Origin: Candidatus Moraniibacteriota bacterium
GTDB taxonomy: Bacteria; Patescibacteriota; Minisyncoccia; Moranbacterales; UBA1568
DNA length: 64,000 bases
Assembly (NCBI GenBank): GCA_013336285.1
Contig: JAAXTX010000001.1
Location: forward strand, 20,201 to 84,200
Direction of reading: 5' to 3'
Both the position numbers and the translations under genes were made by a program. The notes under the pieces were generated by a model. That model made no database searches and had not been told where the DNA came from. It worked only from the letters and a program-made list of their open reading frames with translations. Positions 7,837-27,294 of this stretch are shown piece after piece; within the stretch, counting starts at the first letter, position 1; each line of letters starts with the position of its first letter.

Positions 7837-8517
7837 TCACAGGACATCCACGATTTTCGGTTTTCGTTCGGAAAAAGAATAAAGCCTGGCGGGACGGCTC
7901 TGCCCCGATTTCCGGATCTTCCCGGTCTCCTTGACCAGGTCGATATCCAGGATTTTCTTACGGAAGTTCCGTTTGTCAAGTTCGTGACCCAGGATGATCT
8001 CATACGCCGTCTGCAGTTCGGTGAGCGTGAATTCCTTCGGCAACAGTCCGTACGCGATATTCGAGTACCCGAGTTTGTTCCGAAGCCGGTCGATTCCCAC
8101 GGAAACGATCTTCGTATGATCGAACGCGAGCTTCGGTAGTTTGGCCGTATCGTACCAGGCTATATCGGAATAGTATTCGATGGTCGCGGGCAGGCATCGG
8201 TCGCTGTTCACGAGCGCGAAATACGCGACCGAAACGCTGCGACCGCGGACATCGCGGTCGACGCCGCCGAACGCATACAACTGTTCGAGATAGATGTCGT
8301 CGACGCCGGCTTTCTCGGAAAGCACCCGTTCCGCCGCCTGATCGAGCGATTCTTCCGGTCGGACAAGACCTCCCGGAAGTGCCCATTTTCCCTTATACGG
8401 TCCGCTGCCGATCCTAATAAGCAGGACCCTGAGCGCCCCGTCGATTACGGAGAAAATGGCGGTATCGACCGCGATGAGAATCGACTGGAAGTACTGCGGC
8501 ATATCGGTTTTTTTCAT
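7837..8517 (-). CDS. nrtR: NrtR-like transcriptional regulator of NAD metabolism (degenerate Nudix domain + C-terminal winged-helix domain)
   Basis: N-terminal Nudix fold with degenerate Nudix box (GGLVRPEESLDQAAERVLSEKAGV). C-terminal segment FTLTELQTAYEIILGHELDKRNFRKKILDIDLVKETG....RPARLYSF matches the conserved wHTH of Nudix-related transcriptional regulators. It is the last gene of the pnuC-nadR operon. Confidence 0.7.
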   Translation of the reverse strand: MKKTDMPQYFQSILIAVDTAIFSVIDGALRVLLIRIGSGPYKGKWALPGGLVRPEESLDQAAERVLSEKAGVDDIYLEQLYAFGGVDRDVRGRSVSVAYFALVNSDRCLPATIEYYSDIAWYDTAKLPKLAFDHTKIVSVGIDRLRNKLGYSNIAYGLLPKEFTLTELQTAYEIILGHELDKRNFRKKILDIDLVKETGKIRKSGQSRPARLYSFSERKPKIVDVL

Positions 8518-8587
8518 ACGGAAAGGTAAGAAGTGTATCGTTTACAGCATACTCCGGCGGATCCAATACCGTCAATCGGACATTTTT

Positions 8588-9583
8588 TTACGGATCGGGA
8601 AATTCCGCAAAGAATCCGGCTCCGTCATCGGAAAAAAGCGACTCGCACGCTATCACGGCCGTCTTCATCCGACTCTCATGATCGCCGGACAAGAGGACGT
8701 ATGGCTTCCCCTCCATTTCGAGCACTTCCCGGAATCGTGCATGCATCGCATGCCGGATCGACTTCCCGTCACGGAGCCCGTCCTGTACGAACGGGATATC
8801 CGCATCAGTCAATAGATAGAGGTCACACTTTCTTCCGGCGAACCGTTTCGCGACATCTTCCGATCGCCCGCCAAGATACCGTTCATGCCACAAGTCGGTC
8901 GCCCACGAATCAGTGTCGCAAAAAAGAAGCTTGTCGGCATATCTTGCGAGCGCATCCTCCATTCGATTCTGCTCTTCGGCGATAAAATCGAATTCCCCCG
9001 ATTCCCACGCCGTTTCGGACATGATTTTTCCTTCGGTATAGATACGACCGAATTCCGGGACCCACGTCGTCCTGAAATGCTCCGCCAACGCCCGTGACAG
9101 GGTAGTCGTACCGGTCGATTCCGCCCCGACTACGACGACACGTTTCACGAAATACGAACGGACGACCGGATGCAGATATTCCCAATTCCCATACAGGTTC
9201 CCGCGGATCGCTGTCGCGGAAATGGGCACGACCCCCCTCTTCGGGTCGACCGAAACATGTTCGGCGCCGAGGAAATGCGCGTATGTCACGCCGTACGATT
9301 CGGATGTGAACACCTTATCCGGACGATATCCGAGGAAATGCAGCGTATATTTCGCCCATGCTTCGGAGTCATCGTCTTTCATGATGTCCGGAACGACCAT
9401 CACCTTGACGGAAGGATGGATCACCCTGATCCATCCGGCCCTGGTTTCTCCCGAGATTCCCTGATCGGATCGTGCGCAAACGGCTACGGTCACCTCATCG
9501 GACTGACGGATCGCCTCCTCGATAAGGAATGAATGCCCCTTATGAAACGGAAAGAATTTCCCAACGACGAATCCCCGTGTCAT
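8588..9583 (-). CDS. nadR: NadR-type bifunctional NMN adenylyltransferase / ribosylnicotinamide kinase (no N-terminal HTH)
   Basis: Nucleotidyltransferase motif GKFFPFHKGH. A second P-loop VVVVGAESTGTTTL typical of the RNK domain. The start codon overlaps the pnuC stop (ATGA). The longer ORF in the track (to 9775) overlaps pnuC and is unlikely. Confidence 0.75.
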   Translation of the reverse strand: MTRGFVVGKFFPFHKGHSFLIEEAIRQSDEVTVAVCARSDQGISGETRAGWIRVIHPSVKVMVVPDIMKDDDSEAWAKYTLHFLGYRPDKVFTSESYGVTYAHFLGAEHVSVDPKRGVVPISATAIRGNLYGNWEYLHPVVRSYFVKRVVVVGAESTGTTTLSRALAEHFRTTWVPEFGRIYTEGKIMSETAWESGEFDFIAEEQNRMEDALARYADKLLFCDTDSWATDLWHERYLGGRSEDVAKRFAGRKCDLYLLTDADIPFVQDGLRDGKSIRHAMHARFREVLEMEGKPYVLLSGDHESRMKTAVIACESLFSDDGAGFFAEFPDP

Positions 9584-10290
9584 ACGGAAAACACCCCCTC
9601 TCCGGAAGCCGGTACCGCCTCCGGCGAATCGTCGTCGCATCTTTTCGTCAGTTCCCGTCTCCATTCGATCAAACCCATGGTCGCGAGCACCAAAAACGCG
9701 GCATAGAGCAGGGACACGAATCGCACTTCCTTCACCGCATACAGCCATATGCCGATCACGTCCACGGCGATCCACAGATACCAGCTGTCAACGACCCTGA
9801 ATATCATGAGCATCTGGGCCGCGAAACTCATCACGGTCGTCACCGCATCGAGATACGGGAACGACGCGGATTCCGGAAAGACCGACGGCCACCACGTATT
9901 CACATGCGCCATGAACCAACCGAGAGCGATCGTCCCGATAAGCACGAAAGCGGCGGTAAAGGAACGTTCCAGTACGGTTCCTTTCCGAATGAGTGATTCG
10001 TCGGACTCATCCTTCTTTCCTTTGCCGACTTTTGCCCAAAACCACCAACCGTAAAAACCGGATACGAGATAATAGATCTGTTCCACGAAATCCGAATACA
10101 GGCGGATTTGAAAGAAGAGCGCGCCATACAGTACGACCGCGACGATTCCGACCGGCCAATTCAGGATATGTTTCCTTGCCACTAACCAGACTGCCGCAAT
10201 GTTGAGAATCGTCCCGAAAAACTCAAGGTAACTCATCGGATAGCCGAGAACCGAAAAAATAATGTTGTCGATACTGAAGAATGAAAGCAT
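9580..10290 (-). CDS. pnuC: nicotinamide riboside transporter PnuC
   Basis: 236 aa, 7-8 TM helices, conserved PnuC motifs (NWPVGIVAVVLY, WWFW). It sits immediately upstream of nadR and is translationally coupled to it. Confidence 0.85.
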   Translation of the reverse strand: MLSFFSIDNIIFSVLGYPMSYLEFFGTILNIAAVWLVARKHILNWPVGIVAVVLYGALFFQIRLYSDFVEQIYYLVSGFYGWWFWAKVGKGKKDESDESLIRKGTVLERSFTAAFVLIGTIALGWFMAHVNTWWPSVFPESASFPYLDAVTTVMSFAAQMLMIFRVVDSWYLWIAVDVIGIWLYAVKEVRFVSLLYAAFLVLATMGLIEWRRELTKRCDDDSPEAVPASGEGVFSV

Positions 10291-10379: not shown

Positions 10380-10420
10380 ATTGTTAGTGTATTATACACA
10401 CTATATAAATGATGTCAAAT
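10380..10420 (-). promoter_or_regulatory. consensus sigma70-type promoter (-35 TTGACA, 16-nt spacer, -10 TATAAT) with overlapping palindromic operator TAGTGTATTATACACACTA, driving pnuC-nadR-nrtR
   Basis: Minus-strand reading is ggaTTTGACAtcatttatatagtgtgTATAATacactaac. The 40-nt core is almost identical to the cassette at 25331-25380. The palindrome half-sites TAGTGT/ACACTA overlap the -10 element, a typical repressor position. Confidence 0.55.
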
Positions 10421-11436: not shown

Positions 11437-12882
11437 TCACAGAAAGAACTTCTGATCCCCGAACGGTCCTACGGAAACCAAGCCGATCGGCATACCGGCC
11501 CCCTTTCCGGACCCGATGAAGCCGAGATACCTACGTGCATTCGAATGCAGACTCCAGGGAAACCTTGCCAACGAGATATCCGTGTTCCATCCCGGAAACT
11601 CCCGAAATTCGAGAGGCCGGCAACGGAACAGCAGTTCCGTGAATCGGGAACGTTCATCTTCATTCCTTTCCGGATCACATATGAGATCCGTTATCCTTAT
11701 CGTCCCATCACGCTTGCGGTGCCATTCGAAGTACCGGTCAAGTTCGACAGCATGGTAATCCCCTTCGCGACAATCCACCTCAAGGGTGTACGACACGCAC
11801 ACCCTTATGACCGGGAACCCCGAAAGTCTGTCCAGATTCGTCACGGCAAGCATCCCTTGTCGATGATTCAGGGACAGCGCGTACCGCGTAGCCAACGTAT
11901 CGAACCACCCGACACGGAACGCCCCCTGCCAAGGATTATGGCCGTTGAACGTTTCTTTGAGATGCCGTGACAGCCCCGGTTCCTCGGTCACGAACGGTCC
12001 GGCACCATGACGATGGGCATACGCTCGCACCACGTTCAACTTCCTTACGGTCGCCTTATCATGCTCCGCTTCCGAGATCAACCGATCGGCATTGGACATC
12101 GTACTGTCGGTTTTCGTCACATGAGGGAAAAAGCCCCCCTTATGATCAAGCAATACTCCCTGCGCCCCCTCGAACACGACTCCGTTCCGAAAATCCGGCC
12201 CGCGAGAGACGATGTTTTCCCTGAACGTTTCTCCGAGGGCGCGATACCCGTCAATAAGACGGTTCTGGTCCATATCCCTCAGAAATTTCTCCAAGGCCGT
12301 CATCGCTCCTTCATGACGATTTTCTGCCGCAAGTTGTTCCGCCTGGTCGATTTTCAGGGACCAGAGGAAACGTATCTTGCGAGAAACGACGTCACTCGTC
12401 AAATCCCCCATTCGGAGCATCTGCGAAGCGAACAGTCTCGAATCGCGGACGGCTTCCCCGACCCCCATTCCGACGCTCCCATGACGATTTTCACCACGAA
12501 CTGATTCCCTCATCTGATTCAGCAACTGATGAAGCGGCGTCACGACGATGCAATCAGGATGGATCGAAATCCGTTCCGATGCGTCGGGCATCCCCTTCCT
12601 TTTGAGGACATTCAGCTCGTCTTGAAGAGTCGCCGGATTCGTCAGCATGTATTCCGAGAGGTATGTCCTCGTTCCCGGAACGAACGACCCCGATCCGACC
12701 TGCGAGAAGCAATGCCATTTCCCCTCCCGTATGAGGACATGGTGAGCCGCCTGCGGTCCGCCATTATAGCGGACCACTTCCCTACTCTCGTTCGACCTGA
12801 CCAGAAAGTCGACGACCGATCCTTTCCCTTCGTCCCCGAATCCCGCGCCGGCCACTATGAACGATGTCTTTTCCACGATCAT
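11437..12882 (-). CDS. adenylosuccinate synthetase (PurA)-family protein, divergent and longer than canonical PurA
   Basis: N-terminal P-loop GAGFGDEGKGSVVDFL matches the PurA GDEGKGK motif. 481 aa. Its start overlaps the upstream gene's stop (ATGA). Confidence 0.6.
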   Translation of the reverse strand: MIVEKTSFIVAGAGFGDEGKGSVVDFLVRSNESREVVRYNGGPQAAHHVLIREGKWHCFSQVGSGSFVPGTRTYLSEYMLTNPATLQDELNVLKRKGMPDASERISIHPDCIVVTPLHQLLNQMRESVRGENRHGSVGMGVGEAVRDSRLFASQMLRMGDLTSDVVSRKIRFLWSLKIDQAEQLAAENRHEGAMTALEKFLRDMDQNRLIDGYRALGETFRENIVSRGPDFRNGVVFEGAQGVLLDHKGGFFPHVTKTDSTMSNADRLISEAEHDKATVRKLNVVRAYAHRHGAGPFVTEEPGLSRHLKETFNGHNPWQGAFRVGWFDTLATRYALSLNHRQGMLAVTNLDRLSGFPVIRVCVSYTLEVDCREGDYHAVELDRYFEWHRKRDGTIRITDLICDPERNEDERSRFTELLFRCRPLEFREFPGWNTDISLARFPWSLHSNARRYLGFIGSGKGAGMPIGLVSVGPFGDQKFFL

Positions 12883-13814
12883 TCCTCCCGATTTTCGATG
12901 GTTTCACGAAACGTTTCCAATATTCCCATGGCGTCCTGAAACGCGTCCGTACGTCTTGTCGAACCGAAACTCATCTCATCGCTCAACATGAAATTGCGAT
13001 AACCCATTTCGCCAAGCATGAGAAGGTCGGCGAGGTCGGCGAGTGAAACCTTCCGGCTTGTACCGAAAGATTCCAACAGTCTCGATGCGGCGATAGCGGT
13101 AGGGTCGGCTTCCACGATGGAGCGAAGGGCGTCGAACATGGCGAACGTATCATCCCGGATATTCTCGAACAGATCGTCCCTTGCCGCCATAAGTCTCACA
13201 TGTCCGCCATATTTTGGATATTCGTTCTTTACGAACGAGAGCCCTTTCGACGATTCGATCTTGGCGATGATCCTCGCCTGAGGATCGAGTTCGAGCAATT
13301 CGCGCAGATCGTTTTCCTCCTCGACGAATGACAACATGTAATTCCTGATTCCGAGTTCCTTCGCGGCCAGAACGTATGCGCGGTCTTCGTCGGTCAGATA
13401 CCCCGCGATACGGAGATTCCTTCCCCGTATGTTCACCGACTGTCCGGCCCCGACCGCTTGAAGCGGCGGCGGGTCGACATACACCCTGTTCCCCGAGACA
13501 CTCCTGATGAAAGTTCCCTGTTGAGAGCCGCGAAAACTGATTTCCGCCGGTATATCGACTTCTATCTCGTGATTGAGAACGATGTCGCCGAATGTCGGCA
13601 CGGCCCACGAAACGATACGAAGCTGCCTCCCCTTCAGGTCGACATACAAGGGCTTGCCTCCCATGACCGCGAGCAGCCGTCTCAACGTCTCCTTGGGATC
13701 AAGCGGCGACCTCGCACCGACGTTGAAACGCGCGGCGGTCAGAGTCCCGTTTGCCGCGATTATGCCGAGAGCATGCTCAAGATGCGGAGGTGGTAATGTC
13801 GCGAAAATTTCCAT
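12879..13814 (-). CDS. pyruvate-kinase-like / HpcH-CitE-like TIM-barrel protein (PEP/pyruvate-domain superfamily)
   Basis: N-terminal region (ATLPPPHLEHALGIIAANGTLTAARFNVGARS) resembles the PK-like barrel N-terminus. 311 aa. Assignment is superfamily-level only. Confidence 0.4.
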   Translation of the reverse strand: MEIFATLPPPHLEHALGIIAANGTLTAARFNVGARSPLDPKETLRRLLAVMGGKPLYVDLKGRQLRIVSWAVPTFGDIVLNHEIEVDIPAEISFRGSQQGTFIRSVSGNRVYVDPPPLQAVGAGQSVNIRGRNLRIAGYLTDEDRAYVLAAKELGIRNYMLSFVEEENDLRELLELDPQARIIAKIESSKGLSFVKNEYPKYGGHVRLMAARDDLFENIRDDTFAMFDALRSIVEADPTAIAASRLLESFGTSRKVSLADLADLLMLGEMGYRNFMLSDEMSFGSTRRTDAFQDAMGILETFRETIENREE

Positions 13815-16124: not shown

Positions 16125-16829
16125 CTAAAGAACTATCTGTTCGACGATCAACGCACCGCTCTGTTGCATGGAAAACAGCGCGAACAGTTCGCTGAGATCT
16201 CGCGGGTGCACTCCGGGCAAATCATAGGTCACGACCGCATCTATCGGGATGATGACCTGCAGGTCCGACGGAATGAACCCTCTCGTCCGCAGATTCAGGA
16301 TCGCAAGTACCGTTTCCATCACGCAGATATCAGTGCATATGCCGCCGACAATGAGTGTCTTGATCTGACTCGCATTGATCCATTCGATGAATCCGGTAAG
16401 TTTGCCGATATCTCCCACTATGCCGTTATTGCAATCTTTGCGAAGCAGGAATACGAAACAGCTTTTCTCGGTCCACCTGAGCGGCTCGATAATGGCACTT
16501 TCGGGAGTTCCCAGAACGCAGTGTTCCGGATAGACCCCTTCCCGCTGACCAGCCTCATGACCTTCGGCATACATGACGACCGAGGCTTTGATCCAGTTCA
16601 GATATTCCAGCAATCGGACGCATTCCGCGACCATCGCCGGTACCTCACTGTCATCTTTCGGAGGGGACAACGGCCCGCAACCCGGCGTACAGAATCCGTC
16701 CACCAAGTCGATGAACGCGCCCCCTACCGTATTCTCAAGGTGGCGGATATCGTATGCGTCGACGATATTCAGTCCGACTCCATGCCGTTTCGCGAGTTCG
16801 CGAAACTTTTCCGCCTTTTTACTCTGCAT
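16125..16829 (-). CDS. isochorismatase-family cysteine hydrolase (PncA-like nicotinamidase candidate)
   Basis: Catalytic-Cys region TLIVGGICTDICVMETVLAI typical of the isochorismatase/nicotinamidase fold. Start at internal MQSKK with an AAGGAGAAG SD. Confidence 0.6.
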   Translation of the reverse strand: MQSKKAEKFRELAKRHGVGLNIVDAYDIRHLENTVGGAFIDLVDGFCTPGCGPLSPPKDDSEVPAMVAECVRLLEYLNWIKASVVMYAEGHEAGQREGVYPEHCVLGTPESAIIEPLRWTEKSCFVFLLRKDCNNGIVGDIGKLTGFIEWINASQIKTLIVGGICTDICVMETVLAILNLRTRGFIPSDLQVIIPIDAVVTYDLPGVHPRDLSELFALFSMQQSGALIVEQIVL

Positions 16830-17011
16830 ATTCTTCTCCTTTTTTTGTGATACGTTTTTTGATACACGGTTATTTTTTAGGAACCCTGAACGGTCACGGG
16901 ATAAGCCCAAGCTACGTCGGAAAAGACATTCCCCCGACAAAAATTGTCTTGAATTGGAAAATAATGGGGACCGATGCATTCGATATCGGTCCCCGACCTT
17001 TCAAAACGTAC

Positions 17012-18514
17012 TCATAACCGCTTCGTCTTTCCGGAACGATTTTTTCCGGGCGCTCCAGGCAGCGTACCGCTCACTTTGACGATGGCTCCGGCTTTCGCAT
17101 CGGAGAATCCCTCCAAAGCCCTCCTTACCTGACCCTGCCTCAACTGCGTCTGACCGCGCTCGCCCATATCGACGACATACTGGTCCAGACCCGCTCCCGA
17201 GGAGAGAGCTATGGCTCCGAGCATGACGTCCACGATCGCGCGCGGATCATCGATAACAAGGATATTCTCATCCGGTATGACGCCCGCCCACTGATTCCGA
17301 ATCAGCGTGTCATCATACCCGGCATACCGGTCGACGGCTTCGGGCCGTTCATCCGGATCGAACTCGAATTCCCCGACAAAGACGTTCGCCGCGTTATTCG
17401 GATTTTCCACATCTGAAGAACCGCCTCTGACCGATACGACCGGGGCGATACCTTCGAAATGCGCGATTTTCCCGTTTATCTCACTCTCGACCCTGAACGG
17501 AGTGGCCTCTCGCGATGGTTCATGATACGCGAAGTTCTGTACGAACACCTCGTACTTCCCCTTCGGAGCACGCCCTTTCGGCCACCGGGTATTCTCGATC
17601 GGCTTGGTCGTCTCACCATGAACGTTCCTGTCCACGTCGAGTTCGCCGCCGCAGCGCGAATGCTTGTGACTGAAATAGATGTGCTCCCCGCTCGGCGCGA
17701 TGACATGCAGATCGAGATCGTTCCGGTTGTCCCATATCAGCGAGAAGCGGACATCGACACCTTCATGCATGGCACCGGCCTCAAGAACCCTTTTCCTTAT
17801 CTCCTCGTCGATATCGGTCTTGCGTTCCTGCCAGGTCTTCTTCGGATAGATGAAGAACACATCGTATTTCTCCTGGAGTTTCGCGAATACCGTCCCAGAA
17901 TCCAAGTCTTCCGGCAAAGAGTCGCCGATAAGTCGCTTTACCTGATCCTTTGATATCTTGGGGTAGAATCCCTCGTCCCCAAGGAAAAACAGGATGCCTT
18001 TCTCTCCGCGCTTGAGGCAGTCCAACTCCGTATGCGTCGCGTAGTAATAGGCGAGAAGCTCATAGGACTCCTGTCCCGTTCCGCCGCCGCCTTCCTCAAG
18101 CCAGATATTTCCGAGTACTTCGTCCAGCCGGTTGTCCGACTCGAACTGCCCTACCTGAATCGGGGCCTTGTCTCCGCAGGTCGCATCACCGACGGCGGCA
18201 AAACTGATGACCGGATGTTGCACCCACCCTTTCATGATCAGCTGCCCGATAAACATCGGTAGCTTTCCGTAGATGACCTTCGCATCATCGCCGCGCGACC
18301 GCGTATCATCCATCACGACCGCGATCGGTTTGGTGTTCGGATGTTCCGCCGAATCACGACACTCCCGTATCTTCCCCTTGATGTTTAACAAGGGGTGCAC
18401 TTCGCGCTGGGTCGGTTGCGTCGGATCGCTCGCATACCCACGAAAACTGAAATGATCGTTCAGGGAAGAACGCTGACGTTCCCCTACGTCTCCATCGTAA
18501 TGATTATCACCCAT
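17012..18514 (-). CDS. vWA-like domain protein with C-terminal beta-rich domain of unknown function
   Basis: MIDAS-like DDTRS, plus vWA-like GGGTGQESYELL and ILFFLGDEGF segments in the N-terminal half. The C-terminal ~230 aa are uncharacterised. Paired with the J-domain kinase upstream (30-bp gap). Confidence 0.4.
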   Translation of the reverse strand: MGDNHYDGDVGERQRSSLNDHFSFRGYASDPTQPTQREVHPLLNIKGKIRECRDSAEHPNTKPIAVVMDDTRSRGDDAKVIYGKLPMFIGQLIMKGWVQHPVISFAAVGDATCGDKAPIQVGQFESDNRLDEVLGNIWLEEGGGGTGQESYELLAYYYATHTELDCLKRGEKGILFFLGDEGFYPKISKDQVKRLIGDSLPEDLDSGTVFAKLQEKYDVFFIYPKKTWQERKTDIDEEIRKRVLEAGAMHEGVDVRFSLIWDNRNDLDLHVIAPSGEHIYFSHKHSRCGGELDVDRNVHGETTKPIENTRWPKGRAPKGKYEVFVQNFAYHEPSREATPFRVESEINGKIAHFEGIAPVVSVRGGSSDVENPNNAANVFVGEFEFDPDERPEAVDRYAGYDDTLIRNQWAGVIPDENILVIDDPRAIVDVMLGAIALSSGAGLDQYVVDMGERGQTQLRQGQVRRALEGFSDAKAGAIVKVSGTLPGAPGKNRSGKTKRL

Positions 18515-18543
18515 CTTCTTCGACTCCTTTTTTTGATTGTTGT

Positions 18544-19647
18544 TTACGGTAATACGAATTCCAGAAACCTGATCGGCCCCCAGAGTTCGACTCTCAAATC
18601 CTGTAGCATTTTATGCATCTCCCAGGCGTCCTGTGCCCGCTGAATCGGACTTTCCCTCACGAGAAACTCCAGAAATCTTGCGAATCCCGGGGTCGTCCCG
18701 TGTGGCATCCGGTTCGTCTTCACGTTCCCACCGAGCGCGTAAATCATGCTTTTCCCGACAGCGTATAGGTCCGATGACGGCAACGGCGGTTTTCCTTCGG
18801 CGACTTCCGACGGACTGTAATCCTCGTTAAGCACCTTGAACCGCTCACCTGCTTTCTGGCCACCGATCGCATAACTCCAATCGACGAGCGAAAGATTATG
18901 ATCGCGAGGTCGGATCATGACATGCGCCGGCTCGATATTGCCATGAATGACTCCTCGGGAATGAACATACCCTACGACACTCAGGAGACGCGTAAGCATC
19001 CATGCGACGTGTTGTTCAGGTATACCGTTCCGATAACGGTCCGACTCCCTGATAGCCACAAGGTCGTAATAGCCGTCCAGCATCTCCAGGATAAGAGCCT
19101 GACGTCCGTCCTCGGCCTTGAAACGGTCGATCATCATCGGTAGATGCTTGTCCTGTGCTCCCGGATTTTCCTTGAGTCTTCTCAGTGTCCGGATCTCGTT
19201 TTGCATGAGATCGTTGTCCGCCGGATCATCGACCAGCTTCAGCACGATCTTCCGCTCGGTCATCGCGTCGATGCCGTAGTACACGGTCGAAAGATCCCCC
19301 TGGGCCAGACGCGAGCTGATCTTGTACTCCCGATCTCCGACACGGATGGAAAAACTCTCTTCCGCCGTCTCATCGGGAACCGTGGAGCCGTAGACGCCCG
19401 CCTCGATTCTCACCTTTGCCTTCTCAAAGAGCTCCGAGAGCCTCTTGAACGCCCCGTCAGCATCGCTTTTTCTCCGTGAATTCCGATCCGGATGAACCGT
19501 TTTCGATAGGTTTCGATACAGGCGTTTCACTTCGGTCAATTTGTCCCCGACGCCCGTAAGCATACCGAAAATATCTTCCGGTCCGGTCGCGGAACCTATC
19601 CTCTCGGAAAGGATTTCGAATTCCGTTTCACTGACCATATCCAACAC
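18544..19647 (-). CDS. J-domain (DnaJ-like) fused to a divergent Ser/Thr protein-kinase-like domain
   Basis: N-terminal J domain with an HPD motif (KRLYRNLSKTVHPDRN). Kinase fold follows: glycine-rich GDLSTVYYG, VLKL lysine, catalytic loop IHGNIEPAHVMI (HGN in place of HRD) and DWS in place of DFG. Confidence 0.55.
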   Translation of the reverse strand: MLDMVSETEFEILSERIGSATGPEDIFGMLTGVGDKLTEVKRLYRNLSKTVHPDRNSRRKSDADGAFKRLSELFEKAKVRIEAGVYGSTVPDETAEESFSIRVGDREYKISSRLAQGDLSTVYYGIDAMTERKIVLKLVDDPADNDLMQNEIRTLRRLKENPGAQDKHLPMMIDRFKAEDGRQALILEMLDGYYDLVAIRESDRYRNGIPEQHVAWMLTRLLSVVGYVHSRGVIHGNIEPAHVMIRPRDHNLSLVDWSYAIGGQKAGERFKVLNEDYSPSEVAEGKPPLPSSDLYAVGKSMIYALGGNVKTNRMPHGTTPGFARFLEFLVRESPIQRAQDAWEMHKMLQDLRVELWGPIRFLEFVLP

Positions 19648-19797
19648 CTCCTTCTCTCTTTCGTTGTTAAAGTTCCCCTGAAACTACTACATATGCCGAC
19701 CAGGCGCAAGGGATACCCCCACGACTCACCGGCATACGGATAATAACAAGGTGCCGGACCGGAAAAATATGAACTATTTTCCCGGTCCGACGAAAGG

Positions 19798-22248
19798 CTA
19801 TTCAGAATTCCTGTACAGCCCCAACCGTTCTATGTACTCGACGACACCCCGAGGGACGAGATCGTCTATCGATTCACCTCTTGCCAGACGTTCCCGTACC
19901 ATGGTTCCCGACCCTATGATGGGACCCATACAAATCGATTCGGAAACGGGAGGCAATTCTCCGGGAGATATCTCGTGACCCGGACGATCGACGACCACCC
20001 ACTGCAGCGTCTTCCAGATGACCGGACCATGCGTCCAGGTCCTCTGGATATCGGACTTCCCATCAGCCCCCCTGGTGACAAGGTCGGAACCGACCGCGAA
20101 CCAGATATCGGCATCGGGATACCGCTCCGCATACCGCTCCGACAGATGATAACTCGGCGTATATGTCTTATCCCGGATGTCGGTCAGGTCCACGACGACA
20201 CGGTCCAGACCACCGAACGCGATTTCCGACATGACACCGCGATGCATCGGATCGATGACATTCGCAGACGCCTTGTCAGGGCGTTCCCCGCACGGCATCA
20301 CGATTACGAGATCGAACATTTCCGTGAGTACCTTCGCTATGCCGACATGGTGGTTACACGGCGAATTGAAGCTGCCTCCATAGACGGCGATTCTCCGCTT
20401 TCCTCCGTTCCAAGTGCGACCGGCAAGCAGATCCCGTTTCAGACGTTCGTACCGCAACGTCCGCATCACACCGAGCATCGATTCCCGGAAGTCATATCCG
20501 AACGATCTGCGGGACACCTTTATGATAGGTGGGGCCTGCACCCGTTTGCGGACGGAACCGATAAACAGCTCCCAACACCGCTCAAGGTCTTTGACGAACG
20601 TTTCCTTGGTCGGGAACAGTCGGTCCAGCGTTCCTGTATCGAGTTTCATTTCCGCTTCGAGCCGGCCGGTCGCATACAGGTTCAACACCCATTCCGGTCC
20701 CTTCAGGAATTCCACGAACGCCCGCACCAGCTCGTCATGATACCCGCGACGATGCAGGTTCCCATAATCGAACGGGTCGGCCCCCGTCTCTGAAAGCTCC
20801 GCCATCGGCGCTATCGTGAAACATCGATCCGGAATGACCGGGTTCGGGAATACCTTGCGGTTCATATGATCCGCCAACTGGTATACCTCACGTTTCACGA
20901 GATCGCCTATCGGAAGGACGAATCCTGCGATATCGCCGTACATGGTCCCATACCCGAACGCGAGCTCAACCTTGTTCCCGTTTCCGATGAACACCCCACC
21001 GATTTCCTCTGTCTTTGCGGCAAGGATCTCCATGCGTACACGTGCCTGGATATTCGAGTATGCCCGCGTACCGGGTTTACAACCCGCCTTTGCCGCGATC
21101 GCATCGACAAGTTCGCCGATAGGAATCGTTTCGACGGGAACATCCAAACGACGAGCGATATCATACACTAATCCGAGTGTTTCATCGGAAGTATTCTCCG
21201 TCGGCATCGTGACCAGGAACACATTTTCTTTTCCGAGCACCTTGACCGACAATGCCGCCGTAGTAGCGGAATCGATACCGCCCGAGAGCCCAATGACCAC
21301 CTTGCGCATCCCGGATGGAAGCGTTTGGAACTGTTCATAAAAGGCGAAACTCAGGGCATTATACAGATCGGACGTATCGTCCTGGTCCACCGAAGCTATC
21401 GATGGCATATTATCCGCGAAGGTGACATCGGATGTCCCGGAAACGTACGTTCCGGACACGTGCACGATCTTCCCCTGCGAATCATACACGGTCGAACATC
21501 CGTCGAACGTTATGATGTTCTTTCCGTTGTTCTGTATCCCCACGTTGTTCACGTAGATGAGCGGAACCTTGCATTCCGCAAGCAGCATGCGCGCGACCTC
21601 GTTTCGGACCAGGTTCTTATGCCAGTCGTACGGCGAAGAAGACAGGTTGATTATGATGTCCGCCCCTTCCTCCACCAGACGGGCTCCCGGATTGCAGGCA
21701 TGATGCGTATGCCACATGTCCTCGCATATGATGATTCCCAAACGGATCGTCTTTCCCTGGAAAGTCATCTTGATCGGACGAAACGACAGCGGGTCGCCCG
21801 ATTCGAACGATTCTTCCTTCCTGGAGAAGAAATGCCTGTCATCCTCGAATACGCCGTAGTTCGGATGATTCGTCTTGATGACCTGACCGAGCATTACCCC
21901 GTCCCGGACCGCGATCGCCGCGTTCGATATCCTTCGCCGCCCGTTCTTTCCAGTCTTCCCACTTGCGGCAACCAGACTTCCGAACACCACGACGATGTCC
22001 TTTCCGACCGTCGATTCGCGGATCCGATCGTTCCACTCGAGCACGTCGTCGACGAACCCGTCGTTCCCGAACACATCCCCAAGACAATACCCGGGCACGC
22101 TCAGTTCGGGAAACACGATCAGAGGGATGCCGCGCTTCTCGGCGTCGGCGATTTCACGGACGATATGCTCACCGTTCACCCGTGAATTCCCGGGAACGAT
22201 CTTCACCTGGCAGATCGCCGCCTTGAGTCCGTTCAACTTCCTATCCAT
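19798..22248 (-). CDS. nadE: glutamine-dependent NAD+ synthetase (CN-hydrolase + NAD synthetase domains) fused to a C-terminal NadD-like NaMN/NMN adenylyltransferase domain
   Basis: N-terminal nitrilase-like domain (PELSVPGYCLGD). Central PP-loop SGGIDS ATP-pyrophosphatase. C-terminal RIAVYGGSFNSPCNHHVGIAKVL nucleotidyltransferase (H/T-x-G-H-like) domain. 816 aa in a single ORF. Confidence 0.75.
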   Translation of the reverse strand: MDRKLNGLKAAICQVKIVPGNSRVNGEHIVREIADAEKRGIPLIVFPELSVPGYCLGDVFGNDGFVDDVLEWNDRIRESTVGKDIVVVFGSLVAASGKTGKNGRRRISNAAIAVRDGVMLGQVIKTNHPNYGVFEDDRHFFSRKEESFESGDPLSFRPIKMTFQGKTIRLGIIICEDMWHTHHACNPGARLVEEGADIIINLSSSPYDWHKNLVRNEVARMLLAECKVPLIYVNNVGIQNNGKNIITFDGCSTVYDSQGKIVHVSGTYVSGTSDVTFADNMPSIASVDQDDTSDLYNALSFAFYEQFQTLPSGMRKVVIGLSGGIDSATTAALSVKVLGKENVFLVTMPTENTSDETLGLVYDIARRLDVPVETIPIGELVDAIAAKAGCKPGTRAYSNIQARVRMEILAAKTEEIGGVFIGNGNKVELAFGYGTMYGDIAGFVLPIGDLVKREVYQLADHMNRKVFPNPVIPDRCFTIAPMAELSETGADPFDYGNLHRRGYHDELVRAFVEFLKGPEWVLNLYATGRLEAEMKLDTGTLDRLFPTKETFVKDLERCWELFIGSVRKRVQAPPIIKVSRRSFGYDFRESMLGVMRTLRYERLKRDLLAGRTWNGGKRRIAVYGGSFNSPCNHHVGIAKVLTEMFDLVIVMPCGERPDKASANVIDPMHRGVMSEIAFGGLDRVVVDLTDIRDKTYTPSYHLSERYAERYPDADIWFAVGSDLVTRGADGKSDIQRTWTHGPVIWKTLQWVVVDRPGHEISPGELPPVSESICMGPIIGSGTMVRERLARGESIDDLVPRGVVEYIERLGLYRNSE

Positions 22249-22387: not shown

Positions 22388-23488
22388 TCAAATCCTTACT
22401 GTCGACCTGACCATGTCCGACTGCTGATACGCCAACCCTGCCGCGAGCACATCGTATTCGTAACGGAACGCGACATCCTCGAGATCCGATTCGGAACGGA
22501 GCGCTTCCGCAAAGACGTCCGACGTGACATCGAGATCGATACAGAATACCTGGCTCGAGCCGCCCATCGTCCCGCAGAGAGTCGGATCCGACGAACTGAA
22601 CAGCTTGCCGAACCGCATCGTGGCGATATGTCCGTTTACCAGGACATGCGCCGGTTCGAGATGCCTGGCTACGATTTTCACGTCAAGCCCGGTTTCCTCA
22701 CCCAGTTCCCGGATAGCGGCATCCATCGGCGACTCGTAGTCTTCTATCGCTCCGCCGGGAATGGCGAGCCACCCTGGAAAATCCTTTTTCGACGGTTTTC
22801 TCCTGCCGCAAAGGATCATCTTTCCGTTCCCTCTCGATGAACGGCATCGGACGACGATATCCACCGTCTGCCTTCCCGGTATGAACGGCGTCCCCGCATC
22901 GGCGAGCGCCTCGCAGATCATACTGAATCCGCCGAAACTTCCCATAAGCGCGATCGTGCCGGTAGCCGCGATCTTTGCGAACGATTCGTAATCATTTCCC
23001 AGGATCGCGTTCCTCAGATCGGTCGCGTGATACGGAAAACGAAATTTCTCGGCCAGATCCTTCTCCGGATTGATGACGGACAGCGAGCCCGGTATGCCGC
23101 CGCGACTCCTGAATTCGGAAAGGATCTGCTCCTCGTTGCCGGTGACGTAATCCGTCACCCGCTCGAATCCGGGAAAGCCGGTCGTATGCGCCCACCACTT
23201 ATCGAAATCACCGGGAAAATCCTGCAGGTGCACGAAGGAGACTCGCTCGGAATCGATGCCTTCGTTGATCAGGCTCCACAGGATCATCTTCTCGCGGAAT
23301 ACCGCCAGGAGCGGGTGTTTCGACACGCCGACCTCGTAGCAACTCCCGATGCCGATCACGAGACTATCCACCTGTGTCAGGAGCCATACCATGAAAAGGA
23401 TATGCCCCTTATGCGGCGGACTGAATCGTCCGATGACGTATGCCGTCCTTCCGGTCGGTCCGGAAACGATATGAACCCCGTCTTCCAT
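22388..23488 (-). CDS. nadM: bifunctional NadM-type NMN adenylyltransferase / Nudix ADP-ribose pyrophosphatase
   Basis: N-terminal GRFSPPHKGH nucleotidyltransferase motif. C-terminal canonical Nudix box GGAIEDYESPMDAAIRELGEETG. Confidence 0.8.
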   Translation of the reverse strand: MEDGVHIVSGPTGRTAYVIGRFSPPHKGHILFMVWLLTQVDSLVIGIGSCYEVGVSKHPLLAVFREKMILWSLINEGIDSERVSFVHLQDFPGDFDKWWAHTTGFPGFERVTDYVTGNEEQILSEFRSRGGIPGSLSVINPEKDLAEKFRFPYHATDLRNAILGNDYESFAKIAATGTIALMGSFGGFSMICEALADAGTPFIPGRQTVDIVVRCRSSRGNGKMILCGRRKPSKKDFPGWLAIPGGAIEDYESPMDAAIRELGEETGLDVKIVARHLEPAHVLVNGHIATMRFGKLFSSSDPTLCGTMGGSSQVFCIDLDVTSDVFAEALRSESDLEDVAFRYEYDVLAAGLAYQQSDMVRSTVRI

Positions 23489-23606: not shown

Positions 23607-24950
23607 TCATACAACTACAACCTGTTTTTTTGAGCCCTCTTCTCCAAATATTTTCTTGAAGAGGGCGACCCTATCCGCCGGGCCGGTCGCTTTTTCCGGA
23701 TTATCGGAAAGTTTCACCGCAGGCACCCCGTTCGCTTCTGATACCTTACAGACCATGGAAAACGGACGGAATAAACCGAATGCCCCGTCATTCCTCGGCC
23801 AGAGTCCGCGACAGTCGTTCCCGACGAGCGTCCCCCAGCCATATGACAATGTCCCGACCGCTGACGCGTTCTCACGAGAACAACCGAGCATGGTGTCAGT
23901 ATCGAGTCCGTCGCTCGGTAAAATCATCTTCGTCATCGGATCGACGCCGTGTCGCTTCCACCACTCAACGGTGACCCGGACAGCCTCGTTCGGCTCCATC
24001 GAGTCCGGACGGACTCCTTTCCAGTCCCTCGCGAACGACGCGGGCGCATGCCTATAGAAGTGAGCGGTCCCATACGTATCCGGAAGAAGGATACTCATAT
24101 CGGGGCCGAAGTAGTCGTACCACTTCTGTGACATGGTGAATGGCGCTTGAAATATCCTATCGTGATCATTCCCCGCCAGACACCCTTCGATCATATACAG
24201 CTCGTGAGCGTTCGTACCTTTCGGATTCGCGCTCCCATGCTGCATGGCCAGAAGGACATTCGAAGTCCCGAGACACTGCGACGGAAGCATTTCCGACATG
24301 TACCTCATCACGATCTCCTGGAAAAATCGGCTCTGTCTCCGCCTCGTATCGAAAAGGATGAAGGAAAGCGCGCGTTCCTCACGCAACGCCTTCGCCTTTT
24401 CGAAAAGCCTGGCGACCATACCCGTGTATATCGACAGAATCTCCGATGAGGAAAGCTTCGCGTTCAGGATCAGATGGTAGTAATAAAGCTCCGAAACGAT
24501 CACCATCGCAATTATTTCCCAGAACGTCACCTTCCATGAGGGACCGGTGAAGGTCAGAACATACCCGCCTTCCTGTTTCTCCAGTATGAATGGAGGCAAG
24601 ACCGGACGAGACATCTCTTCCAGAAAATCATCCGACCGGATCAGGCGAGTTCGCCCGTCACTTCCTGTCATTCCTGCCAGGAACGACCGTTCCGCCGGCG
24701 TAAGACAAAGAGCCCTTGCCGCCTCAAGTTGTTCACGAAGCACATCTTCCGGGATGATGTCGGCCAGACGGATATACTTGTCACGAATGATAAGCTTGAA
24801 GGTCGTCTCGACATCCCTGTATTCGGCATGATCGAAATAGAATACGGCCATGAACCATTTGTACACGTCCGTATCGATCAGGCTTTTGACGATCGCTTCC
24901 CCGTTCGGGATACAGAATATATCCCGCAGACCGAGCCCTTGTAATTTCAT
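23607..24950 (-). CDS. pncB: nicotinate (or nicotinamide) phosphoribosyltransferase, PncB-like
   Basis: N-terminal LIDTDVYKWFMAVFYF matches the LLDTD.YK motif of type II PRTases of the NAPRT/NAMPT family. 447 aa. Confidence 0.65.
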   Translation of the reverse strand: MKLQGLGLRDIFCIPNGEAIVKSLIDTDVYKWFMAVFYFDHAEYRDVETTFKLIIRDKYIRLADIIPEDVLREQLEAARALCLTPAERSFLAGMTGSDGRTRLIRSDDFLEEMSRPVLPPFILEKQEGGYVLTFTGPSWKVTFWEIIAMVIVSELYYYHLILNAKLSSSEILSIYTGMVARLFEKAKALREERALSFILFDTRRRQSRFFQEIVMRYMSEMLPSQCLGTSNVLLAMQHGSANPKGTNAHELYMIEGCLAGNDHDRIFQAPFTMSQKWYDYFGPDMSILLPDTYGTAHFYRHAPASFARDWKGVRPDSMEPNEAVRVTVEWWKRHGVDPMTKMILPSDGLDTDTMLGCSRENASAVGTLSYGWGTLVGNDCRGLWPRNDGAFGLFRPFSMVCKVSEANGVPAVKLSDNPEKATGPADRVALFKKIFGEEGSKKQVVVV

Positions 24951-25330: not shown

Positions 25331-25380
25331 GATTTGACAGGATTTATATAGTGTGTATAATACACTTAGTAAGTTCACAA
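25331..25380 (+). promoter_or_regulatory. consensus sigma70-type promoter (-35 TTGACA, 16 nt, -10 TATAAT) with overlapping palindrome TAGTGTGTATAATACACT, driving the isochorismatase-vWA-PP2C-kinase operon
   Basis: gatTTGACAggatttatatagtgtgTATAATacacttagtaag is nearly identical to the pnuC promoter at 10380-10420. A third related motif, TACTTAGTGTGTTACTTAC, lies at 25508-25530. Confidence 0.55.
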
Positions 25381-26423: not shown

Positions 26424-26471
26424 ACCGGGTCACGGAACGGTATAACTAACAGTTTAAAAATGGAGGCAATC

Positions 26472-27218: not shown

Positions 27219-27294
27219 ACCGGCAAACCTGCACAAGGGGGTGACGAAGAATTCGTCGCCCCTTCTTATTGTAAAACAAAAAAAGGAGTCTGCC

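What the first reader, a model, noticed from the sequence alone, without database searches (positions are those of the whole stretch)
19798..22248. Tri-domain NadE-NadD fusion: nitrilase + NAD synthetase + nucleotidyltransferase in one 816-aa ORF
Glutamine-dependent NadE normally ends after the PP-loop synthetase domain. Here a ~200-aa C-terminal NadD/NMNAT-like domain (RIAVYGGSFNSPCNHH...) is fused in frame. That would channel NaMN to NaAD and then to NAD in a single polypeptide. This domain fusion is uncommon, and it fits the presence of a PncB-like PRTase and PncA-like nicotinamidases upstream and downstream.
Basis: seen in the sequence. Interest (0 to 1): 0.55.

Follow-up and report, generated by a model that had tools for sequence, protein, structure and literature searches.

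The report
NadE–NadD fused NAD-synthesis enzyme
In this uncultured Moranbacteria genome, the enzymes for the last two steps of NAD synthesis are joined in one 816-residue protein; the fusion is real and recurs in other bacteria, but it combines two well-known enzymes and is not new chemistry.

Summary
Window 19798-22248 (minus strand) is one uninterrupted 816-aa ORF. It contains a nitrilase-type glutaminase (aa 1-290), a PP-loop NAD synthetase (291-608), an 8-residue linker and a full-length NadD-like adenylyltransferase (617-816).

It is not an assembly artefact. At least 117 distinct homologues (42-57% identity), from independent assemblies of Patescibacteria and Acidobacteriota, have the same architecture. 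Split forms also exist: in locus L010, nadE and a 200-aa nadD of the same subfamily overlap as ATGA.

Within this NadE clade about 60% of the nearest relatives are fused and about 40% unfused. An 89%-identical relative ends exactly at the junction.

The nitrilase triad, the PP-loop and most NadD motifs are conserved. The classical (H/T)xGH motif is replaced by a subfamily-wide [GACS]xHH (CNHH here).

The most likely function is NaMN -> NaAD -> NAD on one polypeptide. Substrate channelling is not shown.

The protein is already in GenBank (NTW13434.1), named only "NAD(+) synthase". I found no paper describing the fusion.

The gene lies in a large NAD-salvage island. Across phyla it is often linked to an uncharacterised J-domain kinase + vWA-protein pair.

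Verdict: a modestly interesting new variant of a known kind.

The parts
19798..22248 (-). Whole fused gene: 816 codons plus stop. It encodes glutaminase, NAD synthetase and a NadD-like adenylyltransferase.
   Evidence: Identical to GenBank NTW13434.1, 'MAG: NAD(+) synthase [Candidatus Moranbacteria bacterium]'.
21379..22248 (-). Nitrilase-type glutaminase domain (aa 1-290). The catalytic triad is E48 / K125 / C175.
   Evidence: Pfam CN_hydrolase 3.5e-16. E48, K125 and C175 are invariant in the 59-sequence alignment. Foldseek matches carbon-nitrogen hydrolases and the N-terminal half of two-domain NadE.
20425..21378 (-). PP-loop NAD synthetase domain with its C-terminal helical region (aa 291-608). 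The PP-loop is S322-G-G-I-D326-S327.
   Evidence: Pfam NAD_synthase 8.8e-43. TIGR00552 nadE domain scores 134 bits, above its cut-off of 63.65. It aligns with 5kha and 4f4h. S322, G323, G324, D326 and S327 are invariant.
20401..20424 (-). Short linker (aa 609-616, AGRTWNGG) between the last NadE helix and the first NadD strand. This is the fusion junction.
   Evidence: The linker is about 5-12 aa in all family members. The AF2 pLDDT dips to 66 in the 611-620 block. Unfused relatives P0002 and P0034 stop here ('...KRDLLSEEN*'), and DNA similarity breaks at this point.
19801..20400 (-). NadD-like N(a)MN adenylyltransferase domain (aa 617-816). Motifs: GGSFNS-P-C631-N-H633-H634, PCGERPDK659, YTPSY, VGSD722, RPG, GSGTMVR785.
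   Evidence: NF000840 matches 5-200 of 201, E 5e-23. PDB NadD hits are full length. Motif conservation is shown. The window differs from columns that are at least 90% conserved at only 2 of 37 positions (P629S, D764E).
19753..19791 (-). 17-bp stem-loop immediately after the stop codon. It may mark the end of a transcription unit, but it has no T-run.
22388..23488 (-). NadM-Nudix gene directly upstream (NMN adenylyltransferase with canonical GRFSPPHKGH, plus a Nudix box).
23607..24950 (-). PncB-like nicotinate phosphoribosyltransferase. It would supply NaMN.
   Evidence: Pfam NAPRTase 1.4e-27 plus NAPRTase_N. NF003704 2.4e-85.
16125..16979 (-). Isochorismatase-family protein, a candidate PncA nicotinamidase.
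   Evidence: Pfam Isochorismatase 3.1e-14. The PncA equivalog match is weak (8e-6, 25.7 bits against a cut-off of 174).
18544..19647 (-). J-domain Ser/Thr protein kinase immediately downstream. It is a conserved partner gene.
   Evidence: Pfam Pkinase 2.1e-14 and DnaJ 6e-7. It is 51% identical to the gene that follows the fusion in Acidobacteria locus L004.
17012..18514 (-). vWA (MIDAS DxTxS) + beta-sandwich + helical protein ('unk500'). It is a conserved partner of the kinase.
   Evidence: No Pfam, NCBIfam or PDB sequence hit. AF2 pLDDT 81. Foldseek matches integrin beta I-like domains at E ~3e-9. It is 53-75% identical across phyla.
11437..13814 (-). PK-barrel-like gene (12879-13814) and divergent PurA-like gene (11437-12882), overlapping by 4 nt. 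This pair is also linked to the fusion in other genomes.
   Evidence: The same pair occurs in L005 and L010.
7837..10290 (-). pnuC (9580-10290), nadR-like NMNAT/RNK (8588-9748) and nrtR (7837-8517). These form the nicotinamide-riboside salvage and regulator end of the island.
25344..25366 (.). 23-nt element with the palindrome GTGTATAATACAC, a candidate NrtR operator. Its reverse complement recurs at 10384-10408, upstream of pnuC.

Best explanation
The ORF is a genuine gene fusion of a glutamine-dependent (two-domain, 'type F') NAD synthetase NadE with a NadD-type nicotinate-mononucleotide adenylyltransferase.

Proposed mechanism:
1. The C-terminal NadD-like domain adenylylates NaMN with ATP to give NaAD. 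The NaMN would come from the PncB encoded two genes upstream.
2. The PP-loop domain adenylates the nicotinate carboxylate of NaAD.
3. That domain then amidates it with ammonia, which the N-terminal nitrilase-type glutaminase releases from glutamine. The product is NAD.

What is shown: the architecture, the conservation of catalytic motifs, the recurrence of the fusion, and the existence of split forms.

What is inferred: the enzymatic activities, the order of the steps, and any kinetic benefit. The benefit is more likely fixed 1:1 stoichiometry and proximity than a true tunnel.

The fusion most plausibly arose by loss of the stop codon between adjacent, translationally coupled nadE and nadD genes. 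The module has since been lost and regained by recombination at the domain boundary.
For: - The ORF is uninterrupted and has three domains.
- 117 of the 120 best full-length homologues are 780-860 aa with the same three Pfam domains. They come from many independent assemblies of Patescibacteria (Moran-, Falkow-, Nealson- and Vogelbacteria) and Acidobacteriota (Blastocatellia, Holophagales, Thermoanaerobaculia).
- Conservation across the family covers E48/K125/C175, SGGxDS, and the NadD motifs GGSFNP, H634, PCGxRxDK659, YTPTY, G720xD722, RPG and GSGTxxR785. The window copy keeps all of these except P629S.
- The NadD-like domain aligns end to end with solved, catalytically characterised NadD enzymes.
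- Split form: in L010, NadE (620 aa) is followed by a 200-aa NadD of the same subfamily (YGGSFNPPGIHH, 40% identical to aa 617-814), with an ATGA stop/start overlap.
- AF2 models the whole chain confidently (pLDDT 91.8, pTM 0.76) with a very short linker.
- The NadE body superposes on two-domain NAD synthetases with TMt 0.76-0.81.
- Context: pncB, nadM-nudix, a PncA-like gene, pnuC, nadR and nrtR all lie within 17 kb.
- nadD-nadE operons are known from the literature, for example nrtR-pncA-pncB-nadD-nadE in Clostridium acetobutylicum (PMC2330246).
Against: - No activity has been measured for any member.
- Both halves score below NCBIfam's curated equivalog cut-offs: NadE NF010588 316 against 479, and NadD NF000840 81.5 against 150.
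- The first residue of the (H/T)xGH motif is Cys here and Gly/Ala/Cys/Ser across the subfamily, so catalysis may differ from that of textbook NadD.
- The window's glutaminase domain departs from family-conserved columns at 13 of 72 positions.
- Two other adenylyltransferases (NadM-Nudix and NadR-like) are encoded nearby, so the NadD domain is not obviously indispensable. Close relatives do without it.
- Channelling is untested. AF2 shows lower confidence at the linker.
Confidence: 0.8

Rival explanations
1. Same fusion, reversed chemistry (the Francisella-type route). The NadE part would act as an NMN synthetase (NaMN -> NMN), and the C-terminal domain as an NMN adenylyltransferase (NMN -> NAD). 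The net reaction is the same, but the intermediate is NMN rather than NaAD.
For: - The same [GACS]xHH adenylyltransferase subfamily is very often fused to NAD kinase: about 64 of the strong hits. That fusion is a consecutive-step fusion only if the domain's product is NAD.
- The GSFNP start of the motif resembles eukaryotic dual-specificity NMNATs (own knowledge).
- The NMN-synthetase route and dual-specificity NadM working with type F NadE are documented (PMC3376133).
Against: - The known NMN synthetase is a single-domain, ammonia-dependent NadE. The two-domain enzymes the window protein matches best are solved as NaAD-using NAD synthetases (3dla, 6ofb with NaAD).
- The C-terminal domain matches bacterial NadD far better (1e-15) than human NMNAT (2e-3, on the C-terminal 35 aa only).
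Confidence: 0.12
2. The C-terminal NadD-like domain is catalytically dead. It would serve as a nucleotide-binding (ATP, NaAD or NAD) regulatory or oligomerisation module on NadE.
For: - The canonical first His/Thr of the (H/T)xGH motif is absent (C631), and the otherwise 99%-conserved P629 is Ser in the window.
- The module is dispensable in close relatives.
- NadM and NadR-like enzymes nearby could supply adenylyltransferase activity.
Against: - The other substrate-binding and catalytic motifs are conserved over the whole family, including the invariant H634, K659, D722 and R785.
- Stand-alone 200-aa members of the same subfamily occupy the nadD position right after nadE (L010).
- The [GACS]xHH signature is subfamily-wide and includes about 68 stand-alone proteins. 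That argues for an active variant and not for decay.
Confidence: 0.06
3. The fusion is an assembly, frameshift or lost-stop artefact that joins two separate genes in this MAG.
For: Split nadE/nadD pairs with ATGA overlap exist, so a single base error could in principle fuse them. An 89%-identical relative is unfused.
Against: - At least 117 independent sequences from different studies, samples and phyla have the same continuous architecture, with a conserved short linker.
- The window's linker encodes residues (GRTWNGGKRR) that are collinear with those of the 57%-identical fused P0003 (GRPYNGGRKR).
- There is no in-frame stop and no frame change.
Confidence: 0.01

Closest known systems
Glutamine-dependent two-domain NAD+ synthetase (NadE 'type F'; e.g. 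Burkholderia thailandensis 4F4H, Acinetobacter baumannii 5KHA, M. tuberculosis 3DLA)
   Same: It has the same N-terminal nitrilase-type glutaminase with the E-K-C triad, followed by a PP-loop synthetase with SGGxDS. Sequence E-values are 4.7e-51 and 4e-50, and the structural TMt is 0.76-0.81.
   Different: It carries an extra 200-aa NadD-like domain after an 8-residue linker. No solved chain covers all three domains (TMq at most 0.59). It scores below NCBIfam's equivalog cut-off (316 against 479 bits).
NadD, nicotinate-mononucleotide adenylyltransferase (e.g. B. subtilis 1KAM, mycobacterial 5DB4/4YMI)
   Same: The match is full length and collinear (aa 615-814 against the whole chain), with the GGxF(D/N)P start, the P..xxK loop, the (S)YTxxT, GxD and RPG motifs, and the C-terminal SxTxxR-like motif.
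   Different: It is not a free-standing ~190-aa protein. The (H/T)xGH motif is replaced by [GACS]xHH (CNHH here), and ISST by GSGT. It scores below the curated NadD cut-offs (81.5 against 150, and 74.6 against 112).
Split nadE-nadD / nadD-nadE operons (locus L010 here; nrtR-pncA-pncB-nadD-nadE in Clostridium acetobutylicum, PMC2330246)
   Same: The two functions are the same, are adjacent and are co-transcribed. In L010 the nadD belongs to the same subfamily, and the cassette of neighbouring genes is the same.
   Different: In those cases there are two polypeptides. In the window there is one.
Other multi-domain NAD enzymes built on an NMN/NaMN adenylyltransferase (NadM-Nudix, NadR)
   Same: They follow the same principle of fusing an adenylyltransferase to another NAD-pathway activity. 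Both are also encoded in this window.
   Different: They use a different adenylyltransferase family (NadM/NadR, with canonical HxGH) and have different partners (ADP-ribose pyrophosphatase, ribosylnicotinamide kinase).
NadD-like + NAD kinase fusions (~460 aa) of the same [GACS]xHH subfamily
   Same: They share the same adenylyltransferase subfamily and the same tendency to fuse with an NAD-pathway enzyme.
   Different: There the adenylyltransferase is N-terminal and the partner is NAD kinase. I found no paper on these fusions either.

Membership tests
Glutamine-dependent NAD+ synthetase (two-domain NadE) | N-terminal nitrilase-superfamily glutaminase with a Glu-Lys-Cys catalytic triad | tested here: met
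   Pfam CN_hydrolase, aa 9-273, 3.5e-16. E48, K125 and C175 are invariant across 59 homologues.
Glutamine-dependent NAD+ synthetase (two-domain NadE) | PP-loop ATP pyrophosphatase domain with SGGxDS | tested here: met
   Pfam NAD_synthase 8.8e-43. TIGR00552 scores 134 bits, above its cut-off of 63.65. S322-G-G-I-D-S327 is invariant.
Glutamine-dependent NAD+ synthetase (two-domain NadE) | Score above the curated whole-protein equivalog cut-off | tested here: not met
   NF010588 scores 316 bits against a cut-off of 479, and NF002730 scores 152 against 473. It is a divergent clade, yet NCBI still names it NAD(+) synthase.
Glutamine-dependent NAD+ synthetase (two-domain NadE) | Fold of the two-domain enzyme | tested here: met
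   The AF2 model (pLDDT 91.8) superposes on 3n05, 4f4h and 5kha with TMt 0.76-0.81.
Glutamine-dependent NAD+ synthetase (two-domain NadE) | Glutamine- and ATP-dependent amidation of NaAD to NAD | not testable with these tools
   This needs an enzyme assay.
NadD (NaMN adenylyltransferase) | Full-length match to NadD profiles and solved NadD enzymes | tested here: met
   NF000840 covers 5-200 of 201, E 5e-23. PDB NadD chains align over their whole length at E 1e-15 to 1e-8.
NadD (NaMN adenylyltransferase) | Score above the curated equivalog cut-off | tested here: not met
   NF000840 scores 81.5 against 150, and TIGR00482 scores 74.6 against 112.45. Pfam CTP_transf_like scores 29.3 against 21, which is met.
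NadD (NaMN adenylyltransferase) | Canonical (H/T)xGH nucleotidyltransferase motif | tested here: not met
   The window has C631-N-H633-H634, and the family has [GACS]xHH. Only the last His is invariant. This is a subfamily signature and is not decay confined to the window.
NadD (NaMN adenylyltransferase) | C-terminal ISSTxxR-type motif and the central P..K, YTxxT, GxD and RPG motifs | tested here: met
   GSGTMVR785, PCGERPDK659, YTPSY, VGSD722 and RPG are present and are conserved in the family.
NadD (NaMN adenylyltransferase) | Preference for NaMN over NMN | not testable with these tools
   Sequence similarity favours bacterial NadD over NMNAT, but specificity is not reliably readable from sequence.
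NrtR regulon | An NrtR operator upstream of the operon that contains the gene | tested here: inconclusive
   A 23-nt palindromic element lies ~400 nt upstream of pncB and again upstream of pnuC. Only two near-perfect sites occur in 64 kb, and the placement is the same in L002. However, the element overlaps a perfect sigma70 promoter that points the other way, and no binding has been shown.

The most novel reading that the evidence does not exclude
The NadE-NadD fusion, or its split form, may be one component of a cassette that is conserved across phyla and not yet characterised. The cassette comprises:
- a J-domain Ser/Thr kinase;
- a highly conserved vWA/YfaP-like protein;
- a truncated pyruvate-kinase-like barrel protein;
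- a divergent PurA-like enzyme.

On this reading the cassette is a regulated NAD/adenylate-replenishment or conflict (anti-NAD-depletion) system and is not plain housekeeping. The [GACS]xHH adenylyltransferases would then be a distinct, fusion-prone class of NAD-pathway enzyme.
Probability: 0.15. Interest if true: 0.65.

Novelty: new variant of a known kind. Interest (0 to 1): 0.35.

Why it matters
1. Annotation. These proteins are named only "NAD(+) synthase" (NCBI) or only "nicotinate-nucleotide adenylyltransferase" (UniRef). Name-based metabolic reconstructions of Patescibacteria and Acidobacteriota will therefore score one of the two essential last steps of NAD synthesis as missing.

2. 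Rosetta-stone evidence. The fusion and its ATGA-overlapping split form are a clean example linking NadD and NadE. They also show the module being exchanged at the exact domain boundary between strains that are about 89% identical.

3. A distinct adenylyltransferase subfamily. The work exposes an adenylyltransferase subfamily with a non-canonical [GACS]xHH motif. I found no study of it. It fuses with NadE, NAD kinase, Nudix and protein-kinase partners, so it is worth a biochemical look.

4. Practical use. A single polypeptide that converts NaMN to NAD could be a convenient part for enzymatic NAD production.

None of this changes the known chemistry of NAD biosynthesis.

Tried and rejected
- **Phage search.** It found only separate NadE or NadD hits below 35% identity and no fused form, so a phage origin was dropped. 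The window carries PolA, HolA, RuvA, UvrD, MurE-like and FemAB genes, so it is a bacterial chromosome.
- **Literature.** Seven calls (five searches and two paper read-throughs) found no description of a NadE-NadD or NadD-NAD kinase fusion. Absence from this library does not prove that no such paper exists.
- **NJ tree of NadD domains.** It did not resolve the NadE-fused domains as one clade. I make no claim about a single versus multiple origin.
- **afdb50 fold search.** The library was unavailable.
- **PADLOC.** There was no hit for the fusion, the vWA protein, or the PK-like and PurA-like proteins. The kinase gave only generic Ser/Thr-kinase hits.
- **Rfam.** There was no riboswitch or other RNA family anywhere in the window, including the 657-nt pncB leader.
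- **unk500 as a missing NAD enzyme.** I considered this and rejected it. The protein is a vWA + beta-sandwich protein.
- **Assembly artefact at the junction.** Rejected on the evidence.
Full report
**1. The observation**

The window has one uninterrupted minus-strand ORF at 19798..22248, 816 codons plus stop.

Pfam finds three domains:
- CN_hydrolase, aa 9-273, E 3.5e-16
- NAD_synthase, aa 312-491, E 8.8e-43
- CTP_transf_like, aa 622-786, E 1.1e-6, above the gathering score

NCBIfam sharpens the third domain. The NadD equivalog NF000840 aligns with aa 617-814 over positions 5-200 of its 201 (E 5e-23). Solved NadD enzymes from mycobacteria and Bacillus align end to end with aa 615-814 (E 1e-15 to 6e-14).

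The linker is aa 609-616, nt 20401-20424.

**2. What genome this is**

The window is a bacterial chromosome, not a phage. It encodes PolA, the Pol III delta subunit, RuvA, UvrD/PcrA, a Mur ligase, FemAB and a XerC-like recombinase. The phage collection holds only distant, unfused NadE or NadD hits.

The exact protein is in GenBank as NTW13434.1, 'MAG: NAD(+) synthase [Candidatus Moranbacteria bacterium]', on an 84,469-bp contig. The organism is therefore a member of the Patescibacteria (CPR).

**3. Not an artefact**

- Of the 120 best full-length homologues, 117 are 780-860 aa with the same three domains, at 42-57% identity. They come from many independent assemblies of Patescibacteria (Falkow-, Nealson- and Vogelbacteria) and Acidobacteriota (Blastocatellia, Holophagales, Thermoanaerobaculia).
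- The linker is short (about 5-12 residues) and collinear in all of them.
- The full-score ranking favours fused proteins, so I repeated the search with the NadE body alone (aa 1-608). Of the 120 nearest relatives, about 73 are fused, about 46 are unfused (600-652 aa) and one is ambiguous at 742 aa. Fused and unfused forms are interleaved at the same 45-60% identity.

Within this NadE clade, then, the fused form is the majority, but fusion and fission are both frequent.

Seen from the NadD side, the three-domain form is rare. An exhaustive search of 1.84 billion representative proteins with the NadD-like domain gave 129 clusters at E <= 1e-30. Only three of these are ~830 aa, plus a few truncated or variant forms.

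**4. Split forms and the breakpoint**

In locus L010 an unfused NadE (620 aa) is followed by a 200-aa NadD-like gene. Its ATG overlaps the nadE TGA as ATGA. The protein has the same motif (YGGSFNPPGIHH) and aligns with window residues 617-814 at 40% identity. This is the textbook precursor, or product, of the fusion.

Two close relatives of the window protein, P0002 (89% identical) and P0034 (60%), end with a natural stop exactly at the junction ('...ERLKRDLLSEEN*'). At the DNA level the window and P0002's contig are alike up to the codons for KRDLL and then diverge. P0002 shares its last ~12 codons and its tail with the more distant P0034. This indicates a recent recombination at the domain boundary that added or removed the NadD module.

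**5. Are the three active sites intact?**

In alignments of 117 and of 59 family members, the following are invariant or nearly so:
- the nitrilase triad E48/K125/C175;
- the PP-loop S322-G-G-x-D326-S327;
- in the NadD-like domain: G624-G-S-F-N, H634, P652-C-G-x-R-x-D-K659, Y-T-P-T-Y, G720-x-D722, R-P-G and G779-S-G-T-x-x-R785.

The window copy departs from columns that are at least 90% conserved at 13 of 72 positions in the glutaminase domain, 7 of 94 in the synthetase domain and 2 of 37 in the NadD-like domain (P629S, D764E). None is a catalytic residue.

The one systematic departure from textbook NadD is the nucleotidyltransferase motif. Instead of (H/T)xGH the family has [GACS]xHH, which is C631-N-H-H634 in the window. 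The same signature is found in the stand-alone and NAD-kinase-fused members of the subfamily. It is therefore a subfamily trait and not decay.

AlphaFold2 with a 59-sequence alignment gives pLDDT 91.8 and pTM 0.76, dipping to 66 in the block that spans the linker. The NadE body superposes on solved two-domain NAD synthetases (TMt 0.76-0.81). No solved chain covers all three domains.

**6. Most likely mechanism**

Taken from established knowledge of the Preiss-Handler/universal pathway:
1. PncB makes NaMN from nicotinate.
2. NadD adenylylates NaMN to NaAD.
3. NadE adenylates and amidates NaAD to NAD, using ammonia tunnelled from its glutaminase domain.

The fused protein would carry out steps 2 and 3.

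- Shown: the architecture, the motif conservation, the recurrence, and the split form.
- Inferred: the activities, the order of the steps and any kinetic advantage.

I put 0.8 on 'a functional three-domain enzyme that converts NaMN to NAD'. I put much less on true channelling of NaAD. Fixed stoichiometry and proximity are the safer reading.

Rival readings:
- **Francisella-type order** (NaMN -> NMN -> NAD), about 0.12. The frequent fusion of the same adenylyltransferase subfamily to NAD kinase hints at it. PMC3376133 documents this route for a single-domain NadE and also describes dual-specificity NadM working with type F NadE.
- **A non-catalytic, regulatory NadD-like domain**, about 0.06.
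- **An assembly artefact**, about 0.01.

**7. Context**

The gene lies in a ~17-kb minus-strand NAD island. In order of transcription:
- pncB (23607-24950)
- nadM-nudix (22388-23488; canonical GRFSPPHKGH and Nudix box)
- the fusion
- a J-domain Ser/Thr kinase
- 'unk500'
- an isochorismatase/PncA-like gene (16125-16979)
- an ADP-ribosylglycohydrolase
- a Nudix protein
- a PK-barrel-like gene
- a PurA-like gene
- an SDR
- pnuC
- nadR-like
- nrtR

A 17-bp hairpin follows the fusion's stop codon. Only one PncA-like gene was found, not several.

A 23-nt element with the palindrome GTGTATAATACAC occurs upstream of pncB, and its reverse complement occurs upstream of pnuC. The same two placements are seen in the related locus L002. 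It is a candidate NrtR operator, but it also overlaps a perfect sigma70 promoter that faces the divergent operon.

**8. An unexpected linkage**

- In an Acidobacteria genome (L004) the fusion is followed by homologues of the window's kinase (51% identical), unk500 (60%) and PK-like protein (46%).
- In a Nealsonbacteria genome (L005) it is followed by an unk500 fragment, then the PK-like and PurA-like genes.
- The split form in L010 sits in the same cassette.
- Eight contig lengths, one of them the window's own contig, coincide between the hit lists of the fusion and of unk500.

unk500 has no sequence-family hit. It models as a vWA domain (MIDAS DxTxS), then a beta-sandwich and a helical tail. 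It matches integrin beta I-like domains.

The kinase + vWA pair also occurs without the fusion in the genomes that source labels assign to Candidatus Uabimicrobium, Pseudomonadota and others, often with a PurA-like gene. The unfused relative L002 lacks the kinase, vWA, PK-like and PurA-like genes.

The function of this pair is unknown. I record it as the basis of the 'novel case'.

**9. Novelty and verdict**

Both enzymes are textbook. The fused protein is already deposited, and automated pipelines detect its domains, although each source names only one of the two functions.

I found no paper describing the fusion, its adenylyltransferase subfamily or the NadD-NAD kinase fusions.

I classify it as a new variant of a known kind: a real, recurrent, evolutionarily labile Rosetta-stone fusion, and not new chemistry. 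Interest is 0.35.

It matters mainly in three ways:
- correct metabolic annotation of CPR and Acidobacteriota genomes;
- the non-canonical [GACS]xHH adenylyltransferase subfamily, for which I found no published study;
- a lead into the kinase/vWA cassette.

Noticed in passing
window 17012-19647 (-); L004 10591-13246; L007 7899-10479; L008 7845-10473; L009 7810-10482; L010 11758-14404: A J-domain Ser/Thr kinase (~365 aa) is always followed by a ~490-500-aa vWA + beta-sandwich protein. That protein has no Pfam family and is 53-75% identical across Patescibacteria, Acidobacteriota and genomes whose source labels name Planctomycetota (Ca. Uabimicrobium), Spirochaetota, Pseudomonadota and Riflebacteria. 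This is an unusually conserved gene pair of unknown function.
   Followed up: partly
window 11437-13814 (-); L005 11452-13640; L010 14469-15863: A truncated pyruvate-kinase-barrel-like protein (~310 aa) occurs next to a divergent adenylosuccinate-synthetase-like protein that scores far below the PurA cut-off (194 against 402 bits). In the window and in L005 the two genes overlap by 4 nt. In L010 an 84-aa ORF lies between them. The pair recurs next to the kinase/vWA pair and the NadE(-NadD) gene.
   Followed up: partly
window 25344-25366 and 10384-10408; L002 6707-6721 and 14503-14517: An identical 23-nt element (TTATATAGTGTGTATAATACACT and its reverse complement), with a perfect 6-1-6 palindrome, sits at the head of the NAD island and upstream of pnuC, in both genomes. 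It is a candidate NrtR operator. In the window it overlaps a 12/12 sigma70 promoter on the + strand (25334-25361).
   Followed up: partly
P0125, P0128, P0129, P0135 (NAD kinase fusions); P0122; P0136; P0225: The same [GACS]xHH adenylyltransferase subfamily is fused N-terminally to NAD kinase in about 64 representative clusters. It is also found fused to a single-domain NAD synthase (509 aa), to a Nudix domain (397 aa) and to a protein kinase domain (609 aa).
   Followed up: partly
window 20401-20460 versus L003 2480-2563 and L002 11780-11845: There is a sharp recombination breakpoint at the NadE/NadD boundary. The 89%-identical unfused allele shares its last ~12 codons and its 'SEEN*' tail with a 60%-identical allele, and not with the window.
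   Followed up: yes
window 20401-20424 (-): The linker codons (AAC GGA GGA AAG CGG) contain a Shine-Dalgarno-like GGAGGA. They loosely resemble the GAGGAAGCGGCATGA stop/start overlap of the split genes in L010. This may be a relic of the ancestral nadD ribosome-binding site, or it may be chance.
   Followed up: no
window 25608-29906 (+); L006 231-4557: A divergent four-gene unit (271 aa, 252 aa, a PP2C phosphatase, and a 578-aa protein with a faint kinase signal) is syntenic next to the fused gene of the 57%-identical relative P0003. This is a second kinase/phosphatase-type module beside the NAD island.
   Followed up: no
window 13983-14960 (-); L002 13180-14088: The window's 325-aa Nudix-like ORF corresponds to two separate ~140-aa ORFs in L002 (42% and 38% identical). 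It is either a tandem duplication that has fused in the window or a gene that has split in L002. Its predicted start overlaps the upstream ADP-ribosylglycohydrolase gene by 79 nt.
   Followed up: no
L011 (ENA ERZ6005329, 167-kb contig) 2837-9497: There is a compact cluster of isochorismatase, NAPRTase, NadE (636 aa) and Nudix genes, with a divergent canonical-motif NadD (GSAFDPPHLGH) and NrtR. It lies among mobile-element-like genes (IS605 OrfB/TnpB, AcrVA2-like, FtsK_gamma), which suggests that NAD-salvage cassettes move horizontally.
   Followed up: no
window 34867-35625, 39200-40012, 44190-44945, 62340-63266: Four TrmB-family HTH regulators of ~250-308 aa lie within 30 kb. Many small ORFs around 33-44 kb have no family assignment.
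   Followed up: no
window 1-64000: No tRNA gene and no Rfam family at gathering threshold occur in 64 kb of a bacterial chromosome. GC skew is negative almost throughout, consistent with most genes lying on the minus strand.
   Followed up: no
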